Below, in pieces: positions 13,612-19,223 of a stretch of 32,000 nucleotides of DNA (position 1 is the stretch's first letter; the number at the start of each line of letters is the position of its first letter). Source of the DNA: Telmatocola sphagniphila (lineage in GTDB: Bacteria > Planctomycetota > Planctomycetia > Gemmatales > Gemmataceae); NCBI RefSeq assembly GCF_018398935.1, contig NZ_CP074694.1, positions 3,510,001 to 3,542,000 on the forward strand, given 5' to 3'. Both the position numbers and the translations under genes were made by a program. A model generated the notes under the pieces. That model saw only the letters and a list, made by a program, of their open reading frames with translations. It had not been told where the DNA came from and made no database searches.

Positions 13612-14145
13612 ATGATGAGTTGGTTAACACCTACGGTCAACATTAACGCCCTGGTTGATGCTCATTACGATTCCCTGTACCGATTCGCTTATCGACTATG
13701 TGGGAGTGCTGCCGACGCCGAGGATATTACTCAGGACACTTTCTGTAAGGCCCAACAGAACTTGAGCCAGTTGGTGGATGTCGCCAAAGTGCGCACCTGG
13801 CTGTTTCGAATTCTCCGCAACGAATATTTGCAAAGAGTTCGCAGCCAAGCCCGTAAGAATGTGCAAACGCTCGACAATCTCGGCGAGATTCCCAGCGCGG
13901 AGTTGAAGCAAAATCTGGAATTCACGTCGGAAGAGTTGCAGAAGGCACTCGACGAATTACCGGAAATTTACCGAACTCCGGTTGTGCTATACTTTTTCGA
14001 GGAGTTCAGCTATCGGGAAATTTCCGAGCAGTTGGAAGTTCCCATCGGCACGGTCATGTCCCGGCTGTCCCGAGCCAAATGCTTTTTGAAAAACAGACTT
14101 GAAGGGGACGACACTCAAAAAGTGATGCCTCCGAAAGCGGATTAA
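13612..14145 (+). CDS. ECF-type RNA polymerase sigma-70 family factor
   Basis: 177 aa. Region 2 ('LYRFAYRLCGSAADAEDITQDTF', 'WLFRILRNEY') and region 4 HTH ('FSYREISEQLEVPIGTVMSRLSRAK'). Confidence 0.9.
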   Translation: MMSWLTPTVNINALVDAHYDSLYRFAYRLCGSAADAEDITQDTFCKAQQNLSQLVDVAKVRTWLFRILRNEYLQRVRSQARKNVQTLDNLGEIPSAELKQNLEFTSEELQKALDELPEIYRTPVVLYFFEEFSYREISEQLEVPIGTVMSRLSRAKCFLKNRLEGDDTQKVMPPKAD

Positions 14146-14146
14146 C

Positions 14147-14857
14147 ATGAGATGCGAACAATTCCGACTCTGGTCTGATCTCGGCGGCTATCGCGGTCAG
14201 GAACTGGATCATACCCAGCTCAGCCAACTGGAAGACCACCGAACGTCCTGCGCGCAGTGCCAGCGTTACTTCGAAGAACAGAATCGATTCGAAAAACGCG
14301 TGCACACACTCCTGCACGACGTTCAAGTTCCCGAACAGGCACGCGAGAAACTCAAAATTAAGCTGCGCGTTGGCGTCCGAAAGCACATTCGGGTACGCGT
14401 AACTCAAATCCTGGCCGTCGCGGCCAGCTTGATGCTCGCTGTGGGTGTCGGTTATAAGTGGCGCGATAATCGGGCCAAGAGCGATATCGAAACCGTTGTG
14501 GAACAGTTCGATCCCGCTCGAGGCTATCAAGCCTGGTTGGATAGCCTGGAATACGACTTCAACCCGGAAGTCTCCTTCAATTCCACGCTCTTTGTCTCGC
14601 AAGGCTCTTTTGATATTCGACCGCAAGTCTCGATTCCTTCGATGGTCTTGCTCAACAAGCGACTCAGCGTGACAGCGCACGTTTTGATCGTTCCCGATTC
14701 AGTGGCCAACCTGCAGGAGTTAATGAAACTATCGCCCAGTACTCCCCTGCTCCACTCCCGAATTCTTCGGGACAAGAGCCGCGCGGACTTACGTTACTTA
14801 GTCCTCTATACCGGCCCCTCTCTCGAAGCCTTCCTCGAACATCCCGAAGATATCTGA
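14147..14857 (+). CDS. Membrane-anchored zinc-type (ZAS, zf-HC2) anti-sigma factor
   Basis: It starts 1 nt after the sigma gene's stop codon. The N-terminus carries C3...H31-x3-C35-x2-C38 ('EDHRTSCAQCQ'). There is a single TM ('ILAVAASLMLAVGVGY') followed by a ~130-aa extracytoplasmic domain. Confidence 0.7.
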   Translation: MRCEQFRLWSDLGGYRGQELDHTQLSQLEDHRTSCAQCQRYFEEQNRFEKRVHTLLHDVQVPEQAREKLKIKLRVGVRKHIRVRVTQILAVAASLMLAVGVGYKWRDNRAKSDIETVVEQFDPARGYQAWLDSLEYDFNPEVSFNSTLFVSQGSFDIRPQVSIPSMVLLNKRLSVTAHVLIVPDSVANLQELMKLSPSTPLLHSRILRDKSRADLRYLVLYTGPSLEAFLEHPEDI

Positions 14858-14902: not shown

Positions 14903-14925
14903 CCAGTGTCGTCCTTGCACACTGG
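14903..14925 (+). terminator. Hairpin between the anti-sigma gene and the selenoprotein gene; its 3' arm overlaps the downstream Shine-Dalgarno
   Basis: CCAGTGT (14903-14909) / ACACTGG (14919-14925) with a 9-nt loop, extendable by AATTC/GAATT with a bulge. GGAG at 14924-14927 is the SD of the TTG at 14935. No U-tract. Confidence 0.3.
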
Positions 14926-14934
14926 AGAATTCCC

Positions 14935-15174
14935 TTGCGCCTAGAACTCAAATATTGCGCGGTTTGAAACTATGAGCCGCAGGCTGTCAGTTTGACGAGC
15001 CAGATACTGAAACGCTTCAAACAAAAAATCCAGGAACTGAAGCTCATCCCCTCCGGAGGTGGCTGCTTCGAAATCAAGTTGGACGATCAACTGATTTACT
15101 CCAAACTGAAACTGGGCAAGTTTCCGAACGAACCGGATATTCTCAAGGTGATCGAGAATCACTTGAAATCCTGA
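14935..15174 (+). CDS. SelW-like / Rdx-family thioredoxin-fold selenoprotein, with in-frame UGA at 14965-14967 read as selenocysteine
   Basis: The TTG at 14935 is preceded by GGAG (7-nt spacer). Hand translation gives M-RLELKYCAV-U-NYEPQAVSLTSQILKRFKQKIQELKLIPSGGGCFEIKLDDQLIYSKLKLGKFPNEPDILKVIENHLKS (79 aa). The 'YC-x-x-U' motif after beta-1 and 'P(S/G)GGG.FE(I/V)...LI(Y/W)SK...G.FP' are the hallmarks of the Rdx (SelW/SelT/SelH) family. The ORF track reports only the part after the UGA (14992..15174). The gene lies 10 nt upstream of selD. Confidence 0.75.
14965..14995 (+). promoter_or_regulatory. Candidate bacterial SECIS hairpin starting at the UGA
   Basis: Lower stem UGAAAC (14965-14970) / GUUUGA (14990-14995), 5 of 6 pairs. 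Upper stem UGAGCC (14973-14978) / GGCU-[GU bulge]-CA (14982-14989). The apical loop is GCA. Confidence 0.45.
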
Positions 15175-15184
15175 TGAGCCAATC

Positions 15185-16243
15185 ATGACAGAATCAAAAG
15201 CCCCCCGCTTGACCGATTATGCTTCCTGCGCCGGGTGCGCGGCCAAGATTGCGCCCGGGAATATCTCTCGAGTCCTCTCCTTCATACCTCAACCGCCGAA
15301 CGCGAATGTTTTGGTCGGCACGGAAACCCACGACGATGCGGGAATCTACCAACTGACCGATGAAATCGCCCTCGTTCAAACGCTCGATTTTTTTCCGCCG
15401 ATTGTGGACGATCCCTTTATTTACGGCCAGATTGCGGCCGCGAACGCCTTGAGCGATGTTTACGCCATGGGTGGGGAACCTAAAACCGTTCTCAATCTTG
15501 TCGGCTACCCGGATAATACACTCGGACAATTCGACTGGCTGGGACAAATTCTTCAGGGCGGCGCTGAACGCTGCCGGGAAGCAGGTGCCTTTATCATCGG
15601 CGGTCATACAGTCCGGGATGCAGAAATCAAATTCGGGCTTTCAGTGACTGGGGTTGTACACCCCCAAAGATATCTCACCAACGCCGGCGCAAAACCGGGA
15701 GACCTATTGATACTGACCAAACCCCTCGGAACGGGCTTCGTCACCACCGCGGCCAAAAAGGATAGCTGCCCCGCCGCAGTCTTGAAGGCCGCCTGCGATA
15801 GCATGACGCAGTTGAACAAGGTGGGGAAAGAAGCCGCCTTGGCAGTAGGCGGGGTGCATTCTATGACCGACATCACCGGGTTCGGATTAGCCGGTCATGG
15901 ATTCGAGATGGCGGATGGCTCCCAGGTCACGCTCGCTTTTGACGTTCGTAAGCTGCCCATCATTACGGGCATACTCGAAAACAAGTTGACGCAGTTTAAG
16001 ACTCGAGCAAGTAAAACCAATTTCGAGTATGTGGAATCGCAAATTGCCTTCGAAGGCGAAAAAGATCCGATTCTGAGTGAATTCCTCTGGGATGCCCAGA
16101 CGTCCGGTGGATTGTTGATTAGTGTTGCGCCGGAGAAGGCCGATCTGCTGCGGACTCGACTGCGGGAAATGGGGGCAACGTTTAGTGCGATCATCGGTGA
16201 AGTGAAGCCGAAGCAGGAGAAGGCTTTAATCTTCCGCTTCTGA
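15185..16243 (+). CDS. selD: Selenide, water dikinase (selenophosphate synthetase), Cys-type
   Basis: 352 aa. The N-terminal active-site loop 'LTDYASCAGCAAKIAPG' aligns with E. coli '..GAGCGCKISP' (catalytic Cys/Lys retained). AIR-synthase-like domains are present ('DDAGIY', 'DFFPPIVDDPFIYGQIAAANALSDVYAMGG', 'MTDITGFGLAGH'). Confidence 0.95.
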   Translation: MTESKAPRLTDYASCAGCAAKIAPGNISRVLSFIPQPPNANVLVGTETHDDAGIYQLTDEIALVQTLDFFPPIVDDPFIYGQIAAANALSDVYAMGGEPKTVLNLVGYPDNTLGQFDWLGQILQGGAERCREAGAFIIGGHTVRDAEIKFGLSVTGVVHPQRYLTNAGAKPGDLLILTKPLGTGFVTTAAKKDSCPAAVLKAACDSMTQLNKVGKEAALAVGGVHSMTDITGFGLAGHGFEMADGSQVTLAFDVRKLPIITGILENKLTQFKTRASKTNFEYVESQIAFEGEKDPILSEFLWDAQTSGGLLISVAPEKADLLRTRLREMGATFSAIIGEVKPKQEKALIFRF

Positions 16244-16248
16244 AATTC

Positions 16249-17271
16249 TCACCAGCGCATCAGGGCTGTGCCCCAGACCAACCCCGCCCCAAATCCGCTC
16301 ATCACGATGAGATTTCCGTCTTTCACCCGCCCCTCGGTAAAGGCTTCGTCCAAGGCCAGGGGAATTGAACCGGCGGAAGTGTTCCCGTACTTATCGAGAT
16401 TGTTGAAAACTTTCGAACGGGGAATCTTCAGAACGTCGATCGAGGCATTGATTATGCGAATGTTGGCCTGGTGAGGAATGTACAGATCGACGTCGTTAGG
16501 CTGCAAATTGCTGTAGTTCAGCACATCCTGAATTGTGTCGCACAGGATGTCCACGGCCCAGCGAAAAACCGCCCGACCATCCATGTACATAAAGTGCTTT
16601 CCCTCCACAAGATGCTCAGGCTTAGGAGGCATTCGGCTGCCCCCGGATTCCCGGCACAGCAGCATTCCGCCCGCTCCATCGGAGCCCATGCTATAGCTCA
16701 AAATCCCCTGATCGGGTCGACCACGGGTAAGCAGCACGGCCCCTGCACCATCGCCGAATAGTGGAAAAGTCTTGATGTCGTTGGGGTTGAGAATTCGCGA
16801 GTTGGTATCGCCGCCGATCACCAGAGCCATATCGCTGGCCCCGGAGACGATATAACTGGCTGCGGTGATTAGGGCGTACATGAATCCGGCGCAGGCCGCT
16901 TCCACTTCGATGGCGGGGCAAACCAGTCCCAATCGATCCTGAATAATCGATGCGGTTGAAGGAAAAGACATATCCGGGGTAAATGTTCCCAGAACCAGCA
17001 GATCGATGTCCTTAGCTTCCACGCCGGCCTTTTTCAAACACCGGTTGGCCGCTTCGATGCATAAATCGCTGGTCGCTTCGTGGGGGGCGGCGTGCCGACG
17101 CTCCAGAATGCCGGTCCGCTTGACGATCCAGTCGGAATCGAAACCGAGCATGGCGTGCAGATGATTGTTGTCGAGAACCGTTGAAGGCACGTAACTGCCC
17201 GTCGAGATAACCCGAACCCCCATCAGTTGACGGCAGCGGGGGCGGTGTGTCGGTTTCTTTTCAGAGTCCAT
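16249..17271 (-). CDS. fabH: 3-oxoacyl-ACP synthase III
   Basis: 340 aa. 'ISTGSYVPSTVLDNNHL' aligns with the FabH N-terminus. Active-site Cys in 'EAACAGFMYAL', then 'HQANIRII' and 'GNTSAGSIPLAL'. An alternative ATG at 17223 would give the canonical N-terminus 'MGVRVISTG'. Confidence 0.9.
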   Translation of the reverse strand: MDSEKKPTHRPRCRQLMGVRVISTGSYVPSTVLDNNHLHAMLGFDSDWIVKRTGILERRHAAPHEATSDLCIEAANRCLKKAGVEAKDIDLLVLGTFTPDMSFPSTASIIQDRLGLVCPAIEVEAACAGFMYALITAASYIVSGASDMALVIGGDTNSRILNPNDIKTFPLFGDGAGAVLLTRGRPDQGILSYSMGSDGAGGMLLCRESGGSRMPPKPEHLVEGKHFMYMDGRAVFRWAVDILCDTIQDVLNYSNLQPNDVDLYIPHQANIRIINASIDVLKIPRSKVFNNLDKYGNTSAGSIPLALDEAFTEGRVKDGNLIVMSGFGAGLVWGTALMRW

Positions 17272-17346: not shown

Positions 17347-18669
17347 TTACCGCTCCGCTCCACTGGCCAGGAATTGAGTAAGGGCCATGCAGGCCATGGA
17401 GGTCTGATCGATCCGGATATTCCCGTCAGTCGGATTATTGAAGAAAGCTCCGATCAGGTACGCCCGCAATGTCGGAACGAAATGAGAAGTGCGATCTTCG
17501 GAATATTGCAATCTTTCGAGAAAACCGCAGCCGCGCATCAAGGCCTGCTTGTACTTGTCCAACCGGGCGGCATCCGGTTTTTGCAGCATTCCCATACATT
17601 TGTAGGCTTCGGACAGGCTGAGCACGGCCTGAGCAGAGTCGAGAGTAGGGATAGGCTCCAGGTGTTTTACGTCAAAGCCCCAGCGAAAACCTCCTCGATA
17701 AATCAGATATTTCGATTCCGTTTGGGTGAATTGCAAAGCGCAAAGCCAATCGTTCATCTCAAATACAAACTCGGCGAATGGTGTTTCCCGAGCCAATTGG
17801 AATGCTTCGGCGTATGCGGGGCCCATCCAGCCGATTTGCGCCGGGGAAGGGTTGCTGCGGAAGACCGTGCGATAGTACGTCCCCGTGCTGCGCAGTGCCT
17901 GTAACTTCCAATCGGCGGGCTTCAGTTTCTGACTGGCAACCAGGCCGTAGACTGCCATCCCCGCCGTCGTTAGATTATCGCCTGGCTCTTCTTTAAAGGA
18001 ACCATCGGCTTGTAGCAGCGATTTGAGATATTGCGCCAATTCTTCCGCTTTGGCAATCATATCCTCGGCTGGTTCGGGAAGGAGGCAGATCGCTCGAAGC
18101 AGCATCCCGGTGAAGGCCAATTTGCTCGGCATGTTTGCCGAAGTGTTAGGCGTTCGAATGCCCGCGTCATTGAGCGTAGTTTCCGAAAGTAAAGTTAAAA
18201 TCGCTTGAGCGGCCCGGGCCGTGTAGCGATTTTCCCCCGTTGAGCGGGCCGCATGAGCCAAGGCGCAGGCGGCAATTGCTTGTCGCGTCAGTTGATCACC
18301 ATCGGTCGGTTGATTCAAAGCCGGGTTGTAACCCGTGATGAACAAGCCGTTGGGTTGCTGCATGCGAAACAGCCAGTCCATTCCGAGACGAGCCGCTTTC
18401 ACACTCATCCAGGTAGATTCAGAGCTGCTGTCGGGAGATCGAAAGCGATCGAACACGGCCGGTACACGCCGACTCGGTGCTGCGGAAATTCCTGGAGTGG
18501 GCACGGAAGCAGTGTTGCCGATCGGTCGAATGGCCGGTGTGTCTTTCGATCCCTCCTGAAGAATTGTTTCGGGGAGTCGATTTGGCGGAGTCTGAGCGAC
18601 TAAAAAGCTATAGCTGCATCCCAGGATAGCCAGTACGAACAGGGCGACGAATAAATTTCGATGGGACAT
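17347..18669 (-). CDS. Hypothetical secreted protein/lipoprotein, possibly alpha/alpha-toroid repeat
   Basis: 440 aa. The ATG is preceded by GGAGGAGG. Signal peptide 'MSHRNLFVALFVLAILGCS'. Helical repeats ('MDWLFRMQQPNGLF', 'AIAACALAHAA') are reminiscent of the 11679..12764 protein. I recognised no catalytic motif. Confidence 0.55.
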   Translation of the reverse strand: MSHRNLFVALFVLAILGCSYSFLVAQTPPNRLPETILQEGSKDTPAIRPIGNTASVPTPGISAAPSRRVPAVFDRFRSPDSSSESTWMSVKAARLGMDWLFRMQQPNGLFITGYNPALNQPTDGDQLTRQAIAACALAHAARSTGENRYTARAAQAILTLLSETTLNDAGIRTPNTSANMPSKLAFTGMLLRAICLLPEPAEDMIAKAEELAQYLKSLLQADGSFKEEPGDNLTTAGMAVYGLVASQKLKPADWKLQALRSTGTYYRTVFRSNPSPAQIGWMGPAYAEAFQLARETPFAEFVFEMNDWLCALQFTQTESKYLIYRGGFRWGFDVKHLEPIPTLDSAQAVLSLSEAYKCMGMLQKPDAARLDKYKQALMRGCGFLERLQYSEDRTSHFVPTLRAYLIGAFFNNPTDGNIRIDQTSMACMALTQFLASGAER

Positions 18670-18749
18670 TGCTCAGCCTCCTCCATGATGCTTTTCCACC
18701 ATTGGAGCAGGTTTAGCGAAAGATGGGAAGGGCAATTTGGGCGATCCTG

Positions 18750-18769
18750 CACCGGCCCGAAGACCGGTG
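18750..18769 (-). terminator. GC hairpin downstream of rplU (possible terminator, no U-tract)
   Basis: CACCGG (18750-18755) / CCGGTG (18764-18769) with an 8-nt loop, 34 nt downstream of the rplU stop. Confidence 0.3.
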
Positions 18770-18802
18770 AATCATTCAATAAAGGCGGAAGTTCGAAATC
18801 GA

Positions 18803-19111
18803 TCAGACCACGATGCTCTTGATCTTCACATCGAGATGTGTTTGGGTGTGACCACGCAAACGGCGATAGTTTTTGCGGCGTCGGAAATGCTGAATCTGAA
18901 GCTTGTCCGAATGTTCGCCCAAGACTTCGGCGACGACCTTGGCCCCGGCCAGATAAGGTTGGCCGATTTTGATGCTGGCGCCTTGCCCGGCGAGCACTAC
19001 GCTATTCAGTTCGACCGTGGAACCAATTTCCGCTTCCCGATAATCGATTCGAACGACATCGCCTTCGCTGACTCGGTACTGACGAGAGCCATCTTCAAAC
19101 ACAGCGTACAT
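18803..19111 (-). CDS. rplU: 50S ribosomal protein L21
   Basis: 102 aa. 'MYAVFEDGSRQYRVSEGDVVRID...KVVAEVLGEHSDKLQIQHFRRRKNYRRLRGHTQ' is the canonical L21 sequence pattern. Confidence 0.95.
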   Translation of the reverse strand: MYAVFEDGSRQYRVSEGDVVRIDYREAEIGSTVELNSVVLAGQGASIKIGQPYLAGAKVVAEVLGEHSDKLQIQHFRRRKNYRRLRGHTQTHLDVKIKSIVV

Positions 19112-19223
19112 ATTCCAGCTCCGAAGCTTTTCACTTTTATTCGAGTCTATTAGTGTAGCGTCCGGGAAATAATTTGGCTAGGATCTGTCACCAGATTGTT
19201 TTTAATGGAATTTGAGTGCATCA

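What the first reader, a model, noticed from the sequence alone, without database searches (positions are those of the whole stretch)
14935..15174. Hidden selenoprotein gene: Rdx/SelW-like ORF with TTG start and in-frame UGA (C-A-V-U), truncated by the ORF track
The track shows only a 60-aa ORF (14992..15174) starting at an internal TTG. Reading the same frame upstream crosses a TGA at 14965-14967. This yields 'LELKYCAV-U-NYEPQAV...', which puts the UGA exactly where the Rdx (SelW/SelT/SelH) family has its CxxU/CxxC redox motif after the first beta-strand. The downstream part ('IPSGGGCFEIKLDDQLIYSKLKLGKFP') is the family's conserved core. A GGAG sits 7 nt before the only available start (TTG 14935). 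The gene ends 10 nt before selD, the selenium donor synthetase. Standard gene callers would miss it or truncate it.
Basis: partly seen in the sequence, partly recalled or inferred. Interest (0 to 1): 0.75.

Follow-up and report, generated by a model that had tools for sequence, protein, structure and literature searches.

The report
Mis-annotated SelW-like selenoprotein gene before selD
A small redox protein gene just upstream of selD in Telmatocola sphagniphila almost certainly reads an internal UGA "stop" as selenocysteine, so the public annotation cuts off its first 19 residues and its active site; the gene family itself is well known.

Summary
Reading from TTG 14935 through TGA 14965-67 to the stop at 15172-74 gives a 79-residue protein with a C8-A-V-U11 motif. 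It matches the Rdx / SelT-SelW-SelH profiles end to end. The public 60-residue version covers only profile positions 19-73. All 15 orthologous loci first collected keep the TGA at codon 11 and have ATG where the window has TTG. A hairpin at 14982-15001, with apical loop GUU 22 nt after the UGA, meets the published bacterial SECIS criteria. It is the only consensus structure predicted, and it shows frozen synonymous sites and a compensatory pair. Most relatives carry a selenocysteine-type selD directly downstream. In the window, selD has switched to Cys and lost its own hairpin, while the SelW-like gene keeps both UGA and hairpin. The main gap is that selA, selB and selC of this genome could not be reached, so present-day Sec insertion is inferred, not shown. 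Verdict: a real selenoprotein gene, a new and mis-annotated member of a well-known family. The side lead is a recurrent SelW-like→tRNA-Sec→selD→selA→selB gene order.

The parts
14924..14927 (+). Shine-Dalgarno-like GGAG, 7 nt upstream of the start codon
   Evidence: Read directly. Orthologues carry AAGGAG/GGAGG at the same distance before their ATG.
14935..15174 (+). Full SelW-like (Rdx family) selenoprotein CDS: TTG start, 79 codons including Sec codon 11, stop TGA 15172-74
   Evidence: Translation. Pfam Rdx 70.9 bits, profile positions 2-73 of 74. TIGR02174 68 bits against a cutoff of 34.2. ATG lies at the homologous position in 15 of 15 orthologues and in 100 of 118 metagenome loci.
14956..14967 (+). 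Redox motif C8-A-V-U11 (TGC GCG GTT TGA). The Sec codon TGA is 14965-67.
   Evidence: Aligns with the CxxC of solved Rdx structures. TGA is invariant in all orthologues.
14982..15001 (+). SECIS-like hairpin GGCUGUCA-GUU-UGAC(G)AGCC. The apical loop GUU is 14990-92, 22 nt after the UGA. The consensus core stem is 14985-89 paired with 14993-97.
   Evidence: MFE is -9.4 kcal/mol. It is the only RNAalifold consensus structure in the first 102 nt. Pair 51-63 is CG:11, UA:4, UG:1, and C-G 101, U-A 7, U-G 2, none unpaired in metagenomes. Third positions of codons 18-20 are invariant. It meets the criteria quoted from PMC13188914.
14992..14994 (+). Internal TTG used as the start of the truncated 60-aa public annotation. 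It lies inside the hairpin (last loop base plus the first two bases of the 3' stem).
   Evidence: The codon is CTG in L006 and L008, so it is not a conserved start. No SD precedes it.
15185..16243 (+). selD (selenide, water dikinase), Cys type (TGC 15236-38 in SCAGCAAK), 10 nt after the SelW-like stop
   Evidence: TIGR00476 367.5 bits. 11 of 15 relatives have TGA at this codon plus a GCGCAG-GUY-CUGCGC hairpin, which is absent in the window.
13612..14857 (+). Co-directional ECF sigma factor (13612-14145) and a weakly DUF3379-like, putative anti-sigma gene (14147-14857) directly upstream. Their link to the selenoprotein gene is uncertain.
   Evidence: Pfam Sigma70_r2/r4 hits. The DUF3379 hit is 31.7 bits, below the 33.2 cutoff. 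The same four-gene order occurs in the Fimbriiglobus sp. locus L017.

Best explanation
Bases 14935-15174 encode a 79-residue SelW-like (Rdx-fold) selenoprotein.

**Proposed mechanism**
- Translation starts at TTG 14935, with GGAG 7 nt upstream.
- At UGA 14965-67, SelB carrying Sec-tRNA(Sec) is recruited by the in-frame hairpin 14982-15001 (apical loop GUU, 22 nt downstream). Selenocysteine is inserted instead of terminating.
- The product has beta1 - C8-A-V-U11 - alpha1 at the N-terminus of a thioredoxin-like fold. It should cycle between a selenol/thiol and a selenenylsulfide, like other CxxU thiol oxidoreductases.
- The gene is probably co-transcribed with selD, given the 10-nt gap.

**Shown here:** the sequence features, family membership including the N-terminus, conservation of the UGA, conservation and covariation of the hairpin, and synteny with selD.

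**Inferred:** that Sec is actually inserted in Telmatocola today, the redox chemistry, the co-transcription, and any physiological role.
For: - **Family membership.** The profile matches cover the N-terminus. Cys homologues of solved structure place CxxC on C8..U11.
- **Fold.** An AF2 model of the full-length orthologue P0002 has beta1 at 3-8, a loop, and alpha1 at 15-28. Its best Foldseek matches are SelW-related crystal structures 2p0g and 2fa8, TM 0.72-0.74.
- **Conserved UGA and upstream coding.** TGA is conserved in 15 of 15 and 118 of 118 loci. The upstream codons are under coding-type selection: E4 and Y7 invariant and C8 in 15 of 16 (the other is TGA), each with synonymous variation.
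- **Hairpin.** All published bSECIS criteria are met. Synonymous sites are frozen at the hairpin apex: Ser19 is always AGT, although Ser56 uses TCC, TCA and TCG. There is a compensatory pair: C-G 101, U-A 7, U-G 2, never C-A. Fisher p is about 1e-9 without correcting for phylogeny.
- **Internal control.** The relatives' Sec-type selD carries the same G-U-Y-loop type of hairpin. The window's Cys-type selD has lost it, whereas the window's SelW-like gene keeps both UGA and hairpin.
- **Lineage context.** The lineage and phylum decode Sec: Sec-type selD in Gemmataceae MAGs and SelB in Pirellulales. In other lineages the gene heads SelW-like/tRNA-Sec/selD/selA/selB clusters.
Against: - selA, selB and tRNA-Sec were not found in the window or within reach.
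- The window differs from nearly all orthologues in two ways: a weak TTG start and a Cys-type selD. Both would fit a lineage reducing its use of Sec.
- No Rfam family matched, although Rfam is not expected to model this element.
- The hairpin lies in a strongly conserved peptide (NYEPQAVSLT). Part of its conservation is therefore protein-level.
- There is no expression or mass-spectrometry data.
Confidence: 0.85

Rival explanations
1. Relic gene. Telmatocola has lost, or is losing, selenocysteine decoding. selD is kept for selenouridine or a selenium cofactor, and the SelW-like gene is a recently inactivated pseudogene that terminates at codon 11.
For: selD is Cys-type here but Sec-type in 11 of 15 relatives. 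The start codon is TTG rather than ATG. No Sec machinery was seen in the 32-kb window.
Against: - The UGA, the hairpin, the SD, the 10 upstream codons and the 68 downstream codons are all intact, despite about 35% protein divergence from the nearest orthologue.
- In the same genome, selD lost its SECIS hairpin once it became Cys. This shows that unused SECIS elements decay on this timescale.
- Four metagenome loci also pair a UGA SelW-like gene with a Cys-type selD.
- No selU or ybbB motif is present in the window.
Confidence: 0.1
2. The public annotation is right. UGA is a plain stop, and the product is the 60-residue protein starting at TTG 14992.
For: NCBI annotates exactly this protein. 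On its own it still passes the Pfam Rdx cutoff with 48 bits.
Against: - It would lack beta1 and the whole CxxC/U redox motif (profile positions 1-18).
- TTG 14992 has no SD, lies inside a stable hairpin, and is CTG in L006 and L008.
- This reading does not explain the conserved upstream ORF with ATG and SD in every orthologue.
Confidence: 0.03
3. The UGA is recoded, but not as Sec. It could be read by near-cognate read-through as Trp or Cys, with the hairpin acting only as a read-through stimulator.
For: One source translated the orthologue with W at this position (P0002). That is most simply a gene caller run under a UGA=Trp code ('translates to query: no').
Against: - The position is the catalytic C/U of a family defined by CxxC/CxxU (TIGR02174).
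- The hairpin has the G-U apical loop and the spacing typical of SelB-dependent bSECIS elements.
- The gene is physically linked to selD, tRNA-Sec, selA and selB.
Confidence: 0.02

Closest known systems
Bacterial SelW-like selenoproteins (Rdx family, Pfam PF10262; NCBIfam TIGR02174 'CXXU_selWTH')
   Same: Size of about 80 aa, CxxU directly after beta1, thioredoxin-like fold, an in-frame UGA followed by a coding-region SECIS hairpin, and rare Cys forms. The family is described as one of the most widespread prokaryotic selenoprotein families (PMC2398784: 427 Sec against 56 Cys sequences in GOS; PMC1794560).
   Different: Nothing fundamental. This copy comes from a Gemmataceae planctomycete, uses a TTG start, and is truncated in the public record. 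The papers I read did not describe its tight linkage to selD.
Cys-type Rdx proteins of solved structure (Atu0228 2fa8, V. cholerae 2p0g, SAV_2001 3dex, P. fluorescens 2obk)
   Same: They align over residues 2-74, E = 4e-15 to 5e-9. An orthologue model superposes on 2p0g, 2fa8, 3dex and 2obk at TM 0.65-0.74. The CxxC lies at the same place.
   Different: They have Cys rather than Sec, are 25-35% identical, and are about 25 residues longer. Their own biochemical function is also unknown.
NCBIfam NF041051 'SelTWH_Campy' SelT/SelW/SelH family (seleno)protein (equivalog)
   Same: It is the best-scoring NCBIfam model, 83.2 bits over 68 of 70 profile positions.
   Different: The score is below the curated cutoff of 88, so the gene is not a member of that equivalog group. 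This probably explains why the annotation pipeline did not apply a selenoprotein rule here.
Mammalian selenoprotein W (2npb) and MIEN1 (2ljk)
   Same: Same fold and the same CxxU/CxxC position.
   Different: The similarity is distant (E = 0.004). The eukaryotic SECIS lies in the 3' UTR and works through a different mechanism.

Membership tests
Rdx / SelT-SelW-SelH family (PF10262, TIGR02174) | Profile score above the curated cutoff over the full domain | tested here: met
   PF10262 scores 70.9 bits against 22.6, profile positions 2-73 of 74. TIGR02174 scores 68 bits against 34.2, positions 1-74 of 74.
Rdx / SelT-SelW-SelH family (PF10262, TIGR02174) | CxxC or CxxU redox motif between beta1 and alpha1 | tested here: met
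   C8-A-V-U11 aligns with the CTQC/CRQC of 2fa8, 3dex and 2p0g. In the model of orthologue P0002 it lies in the loop between beta1 (3-8) and alpha1 (15-28).
Rdx / SelT-SelW-SelH family (PF10262, TIGR02174) | Thioredoxin-like beta-alpha-beta-beta-beta-alpha fold | tested here: met
The model has pLDDT 73. The top Foldseek PDB matches are SelW-related proteins at TM 0.72-0.74, followed by mouse SelW and thioredoxins.
Bacterial selenoprotein gene (Sec-UGA plus bSECIS) | In-frame UGA conserved among orthologues and aligned with Cys in homologues | tested here: met
   TGA in 15 of 15 loci and in 118 of 118 loci. Cys occupies that position in solved homologues.
Bacterial selenoprotein gene (Sec-UGA plus bSECIS) | bSECIS criteria as quoted in PMC13188914: apical loop of 3-9 nt, upper stem of 4-16 bp, G in the first two loop positions, 16-37 nt from the UGA, MFE of -7.5 kcal/mol or lower | tested here: met
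   The loop is GUU (3 nt). The stem is 8 bp with one bulge. The spacing is 22 nt and the MFE is -9.4 kcal/mol. The hairpin is conserved with covariation. bSECISearch itself was not available.
Bacterial selenoprotein gene (Sec-UGA plus bSECIS) | selD present in the genome | tested here: met
   15185-16243 scores 367.5 bits against TIGR00476.
Bacterial selenoprotein gene (Sec-UGA plus bSECIS) | selA, selB and tRNA-Sec (selC) present in the same genome | not testable with these tools
   None lies in the window. A search seeded with a Pirellulales SelB listed only Pirellulales-like hits among its best 120 of 8000. The cluster representatives looked up carried no names.
Bacterial selenoprotein gene (Sec-UGA plus bSECIS) | Selenium actually incorporated at the UGA | not testable with these tools
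   Needs 75Se labelling or mass spectrometry.
NF041051 SelTWH_Campy (equivalog) | Score at or above the curated cutoff of 88 bits | tested here: not met
   83.2 bits. The gene is not filed under this equivalog.

The most novel reading that the evidence does not exclude
The SelW-like gene may be a dedicated part of the selenocysteine pathway rather than just another selenoprotein.

It sits directly before selD in Gemmataceae. In other lineages it heads co-directional SelW-like → tRNA-Sec → selD → selA → selB clusters (L042, L050, L085, L098).

Two readings fit this layout:
1. A selenol/thiol carrier that hands reduced selenium to SelD.
2. A 'leader selenoprotein', in which successful UGA decoding at codon 11 keeps ribosomes on the mRNA and so couples expression of the downstream sel genes to the cell's current Sec-decoding capacity.

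Neither reading was tested here. The plainer alternative is that selenoprotein genes simply travel with the Sec machinery, as already described for fdhA and selD (PMC1794560).
Probability: 0.15. Interest if true: 0.6.

Novelty: new member of a known kind. Interest (0 to 1): 0.3.

Why it matters
- **Annotation fix.** The public record lists a 60-residue 'Rdx family protein' that lacks its active site. The correct product is a 79-residue selenoprotein with a TTG start and a translation exception at the UGA. The same truncation affects the orthologues in the protein database (P0003 and P0004 are also 60 aa).
- **Biology of the organism.** If confirmed, a cultured peat-bog Gemmataceae planctomycete would be a selenocysteine user.
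- **Wider lead.** The recurrent placement of SelW-like genes next to selD, tRNA-Sec, selA and selB offers a testable clue to the function of bacterial SelW-like proteins, which I understand to be still unknown.
- **What it is not.** It does not change what is known about selenocysteine decoding.

Tried and rejected
- **Rfam scan of the window:** no match.
- **ARAGORN on the window and the 12 genome loci:** no tRNA-Sec.
- **Searches for SelA, SelB and SelU in the window and the first loci:** motif scans and tblastn with E. coli SelA and SelB found nothing.
- **Reaching the rest of the Telmatocola genome failed.**
  - selD, the 1188-2186 product and P0001 are 'not on record'.
  - Only a Logan contig (SRR14506984_89) was returned. 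The stretch retrieved from it ends about 1.1 kb past the window.
  - The source genome did not appear in the genome-contig scan.
- **Attempts to find a Gemmatales SelB failed.**
  - A Pirellulales SelB seed (from L115) returned 8000 hits, of which the best 120 were listed. The named ones were Pirellulales or unclassified Planctomycetota.
  - The 50% cluster representatives and their cluster members carried no names.
  - The third large protein search was left unused, because its chance of success was low.
- **Structure prediction of the window protein with U replaced by C:** Orthologue P0002 was used instead.
- **Crude window-wide scan for other UGA-plus-hairpin candidates:** 10 hits, which were not examined individually. 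The two I checked (+27065 and -19681) lie antisense to predicted genes. The scan's strict stem rule also missed the true element, so it says little either way.
- **Sigma-70 promoter and terminator scan around the gene:** nothing above the shuffled expectation.
- **Literature:** no paper mentions both Telmatocola and selenocysteine. The papers I read describe no SelW-selD linkage.
- **MFE fold of 14955-15020:** it also predicts a first hairpin that encloses the UGA. I rejected it as a feature because RNAalifold does not support it across orthologues.

Full report
**1. The observation**

- In the frame of the 60-aa ORF 14992..15174, the upstream sequence stays open back to TAA 14896-98.
- The only canonical start in that stretch is TTG 14935-37. 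GGAG 14924-27 lies 7 nt before it.
- Codon 11 is TGA (14965-67), and the frame ends at TGA 15172-74.
- The product is (M)RLELKYCAV-U-NYEPQAVSLTSQILKRFKQKIQELKLIPSGGGCFEIKLDDQLIYSKLKLGKFPNEPDILKVIENHLKS.
- Ten bases downstream starts selD, 15185-16243 (TIGR00476 367.5 bits, cutoff 125).
- The source is Telmatocola sphagniphila (Planctomycetota, Gemmataceae). NCBI holds the truncated 60-aa form as 'Rdx family protein [Telmatocola sphagniphila]' on a 6.59-Mb contig.

**2. Family membership includes the N-terminus**

- With C in place of U, the 79-aa protein matches Pfam Rdx at 70.9 bits over profile positions 2-73 of 74. It matches TIGR02174 'CXXU_selWTH' at 68 bits, cutoff 34.2.
- The annotated 60-aa form covers only profile positions 19-73 and scores 48 bits. 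With X at the Sec position the full form still scores 63.7 bits, so the gain does not depend on my substitution.
- A profile of four orthologues finds the solved Cys-type Rdx proteins from residue 2 onward. Their CxxC (2fa8 RYCTQCNW, 3dex EYCTQCRW, 2p0g YYCRQCNW) lies on C8..U11.
- The window protein could not be submitted for folding. An AlphaFold model of the full-length orthologue P0002 (pLDDT 73) has beta1 at 3-8, the motif loop, alpha1 at 15-28, three further strands and a C-terminal helix.
- Its best Foldseek matches in the PDB are the bacterial SelW-related proteins at TM 0.72-0.74. Mouse SelW, MIEN1 and thioredoxins follow.
- The nearest NCBIfam equivalog, NF041051 SelTWH_Campy, scores 83.2 bits against a cutoff of 88. 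I do not file the gene there.

**3. Orthologues**

- Three metagenome contigs and twelve GTDB MAG contigs were collected. The MAGs are labelled Gemmataceae, Fimbriiglobus sp., Planctomycetia, Planctomycetaceae and Planctomycetota.
- All carry the gene. All have TGA at codon 11, ATG exactly where the window has TTG, and an AAGGAG-type SD upstream.
- The ten upstream codons behave as coding sequence. E4 and Y7 are invariant with synonymous variation (GAA/GAG, TAT/TAC). C8 uses TGT or TGC in 15 of 16 sequences; L015 has TGA there. Other positions show conservative K/R/Q and V/L exchanges.
- The internal TTG used by the public annotation is CTG in L006 and L008.
- One source translated the orthologue with W at the UGA (P0002). 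This is most simply a UGA=Trp gene-calling code.
All 118 evaluable loci have TGA. Codon 1 is ATG in 100, GTG in 4 and TTG in 1.
- This last result is conditional. The pattern required the peptide and hairpin sequence, so it shows only that this nucleotide pattern never accompanies a Cys codon.

**4. The SECIS element**

- The window folds GGCUGUCA-GUU-UGAC(G)AGCC at 14982-15001, with MFE -9.4 kcal/mol and the apical loop 22 nt after the UGA.
- The bSECIS model quoted in a 2026 review has four criteria: loop of 3-9 nt, stem of 4-16 bp, G in the first two loop positions (usually followed by G or U), and 16-37 nt from the UGA with MFE of -7.5 or lower (PMC13188914). All four are met.
- Across the 16 sequences, this hairpin is the only consensus structure RNAalifold predicts in the first 102 nt.
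- 88% of cells pair, against 11-39% when the partners are slid by 1-3 columns.
- Pair 51-63 joins two four-fold-degenerate third codon positions. It is C-G in 11 sequences, U-A in 4 and U-G in 1; the U-G is the window.
- In 110 distinct metagenome sequences, where column 63 was left free in the pattern, the same pair is C-G 101, U-A 7 and U-G 2. It is never C-A and never has a pyrimidine at column 63. Fisher p is about 1e-9, not corrected for shared ancestry.
- Third positions of codons 18, 19 and 20 are invariant. Ser19 is always AGT, whereas Ser56 uses TCC, TCA and TCG. Other invariant residues show third-position entropies of 0.5-1.9 bits. This is constraint at the RNA level, on top of the protein constraint.
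- L016 and L017 keep the hairpin through a register shift.
- Rfam has no match.

**5. An internal control from selD**

- In 11 of the 15 relatives, selD follows directly and has TGA at the catalytic position (SCAG-U-AGK).
- About 27-33 nt later comes a conserved GCGCAG-GUU/GUC-CUGCGC hairpin. Its three-base G-U-Y loop is the same type as in the SelW-like gene.
- The window's selD has TGC (15236-38), and that hairpin is gone.
- So in Telmatocola, a SECIS that was no longer needed decayed, while the SelW-like gene kept both its UGA and its hairpin. This is the best available argument that the UGA is still decoded there.
- Four metagenome loci show the same combination of a UGA SelW-like gene with a Cys-type selD.

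**6. Sec machinery**

- No tRNA, selA or selB lies in the window or in the Gemmatales flanks.
- The rest of the genome was out of reach.
- The metagenome loci did contain the machinery. selA was found in 6 loci and selB in 9.
- Four loci (L042, L050, L085, L098) show the co-directional order SelW-like, tRNA-Sec, selD, selA. In L042, L085 and L098 selB follows; L050 ends before it.
- A SelB from L115 identified that contig as Pirellulales-like. It showed thousands of SelB clusters, and the named hits among the best 120 were Pirellulales or unclassified Planctomycetota. No Telmatocola or Gemmatales entry appeared among those 120.
- The attempt to reach a Gemmatales SelB through 50% cluster representatives gave unnamed sequences only.
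- Whether T. sphagniphila itself has selA, selB and selC therefore remains untested.

**7. Explanation and rivals**

- *Best (0.85):* a functional SelW-like selenoprotein. SelB decodes the UGA through the 14982-15001 hairpin, giving a CxxU thiol/selenol oxidoreductase co-expressed with selD.
- *Relic (0.10):* a recently inactivated gene in a lineage that has given up Sec. Cys-type selD and the TTG start fit this. The intact gene and the selD control argue against it.
- *Annotated 60-aa protein is real (0.03):* it would lack beta1 and the active site, and its start is not conserved.
- *Non-Sec read-through (0.02).*

**8. Comparison with what is known, and novelty**

- SelW-like CxxU proteins were described among prokaryotic selenoproteins two decades ago. 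They are, with SelD, the most widespread selenoproteins in ocean metagenomes, at 427 Sec against 56 Cys sequences (PMC2398784; PMC1794560).
- Selenoprotein genes travelling with Sec-machinery genes is also an established idea for fdhA and selD (PMC1794560).
- This is therefore a new, mis-annotated member of a known kind.
- The open-access papers I read do not describe the specific and recurrent placement of SelW-like genes before selD or at the head of selC-selD-selA-selB clusters. I cannot claim it is unpublished.
- It supports a low-probability but testable reading: the protein, or the act of translating it, serves the selenium pathway itself.

**9. Verdict**

- Interest is 0.3. The work is mainly an annotation correction, plus a modest functional lead.

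Noticed in passing
L015 5129-5374 and L075 (oriented start 443): Two independent assemblies (a Gemmataceae MAG and a JGI metagenome contig, with different sequences) have TGA at both codon 8 and codon 11 of the SelW-like gene. This gives U-A-M-U instead of C-x-x-U and implies a possible diselenide form. Both UGAs would lie within the 16-37 nt range of the single hairpin (31 and 22 nt).
   Followed up: partly
window 15236-15300 compared with L001, L004, L006, L008 and L011-L017 downstream genes: selD is Cys-type in the window (TGC 15236-38) but Sec-type (TGA) in 11 relatives. Those relatives carry a conserved GCGCAG-GUY-CUGCGC hairpin 27-33 nt downstream, which is absent in the window (ISRVL instead of IAQVL). 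This is a clean example of a Sec-to-Cys switch accompanied by SECIS decay.
   Followed up: yes
L042, L050, L085, L098 (also L076, L097, L113, L115, L124, L138): In metagenome contigs from other lineages, the SelW-like gene heads a co-directional cluster. The order is SelW-like, tRNA-Sec (ARAGORN, anticodon tca), selD, selA, then selB where the contig reaches. L115 is Pirellulales-like by its SelB.
   Followed up: partly
window 13612-14857; L017 6728-8006: An ECF sigma factor and a 236-250-aa putative anti-sigma gene lie directly upstream and co-directional with the SelW-like/selD pair. This holds in both Telmatocola and the Fimbriiglobus sp. MAG (ECF 54% identical). It may hint at stress-dependent control.
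   Followed up: partly
L006, L008, L010 upstream of the gene (about -45 to -75): By eye, three relatives have their own sigma-70-like promoter, TTGAAA/TTGAAT-N17-TAGTAT, upstream of the SelW-like gene. The L011, L015, L016 and L001 groups have TAATAT/TAGTAT boxes. The window has no such site in its 77-nt intergenic region.
   Followed up: no
L001 245-490 (protein P0002): The source database translated the orthologue's UGA as W. Presumably the gene caller was run with a UGA=Trp code on that metagenome, and this accidentally preserved the full-length ORF.
   Followed up: partly
L009 6507-7493 (minus strand): In this Planctomycetia MAG, the SelW-like gene is followed by a convergent and much more divergent SelD-like gene (35% identity to the window's SelD), rather than the usual co-directional selD.
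   Followed up: no
window 17347-18669 (minus) and 18737-19153 (plus): A 440-aa ORF has no Pfam or NCBIfam match, and a 138-aa ORF has no NCBIfam match (it was not scanned against Pfam). Both lie just beyond fabH (16249-17271).
   Followed up: no
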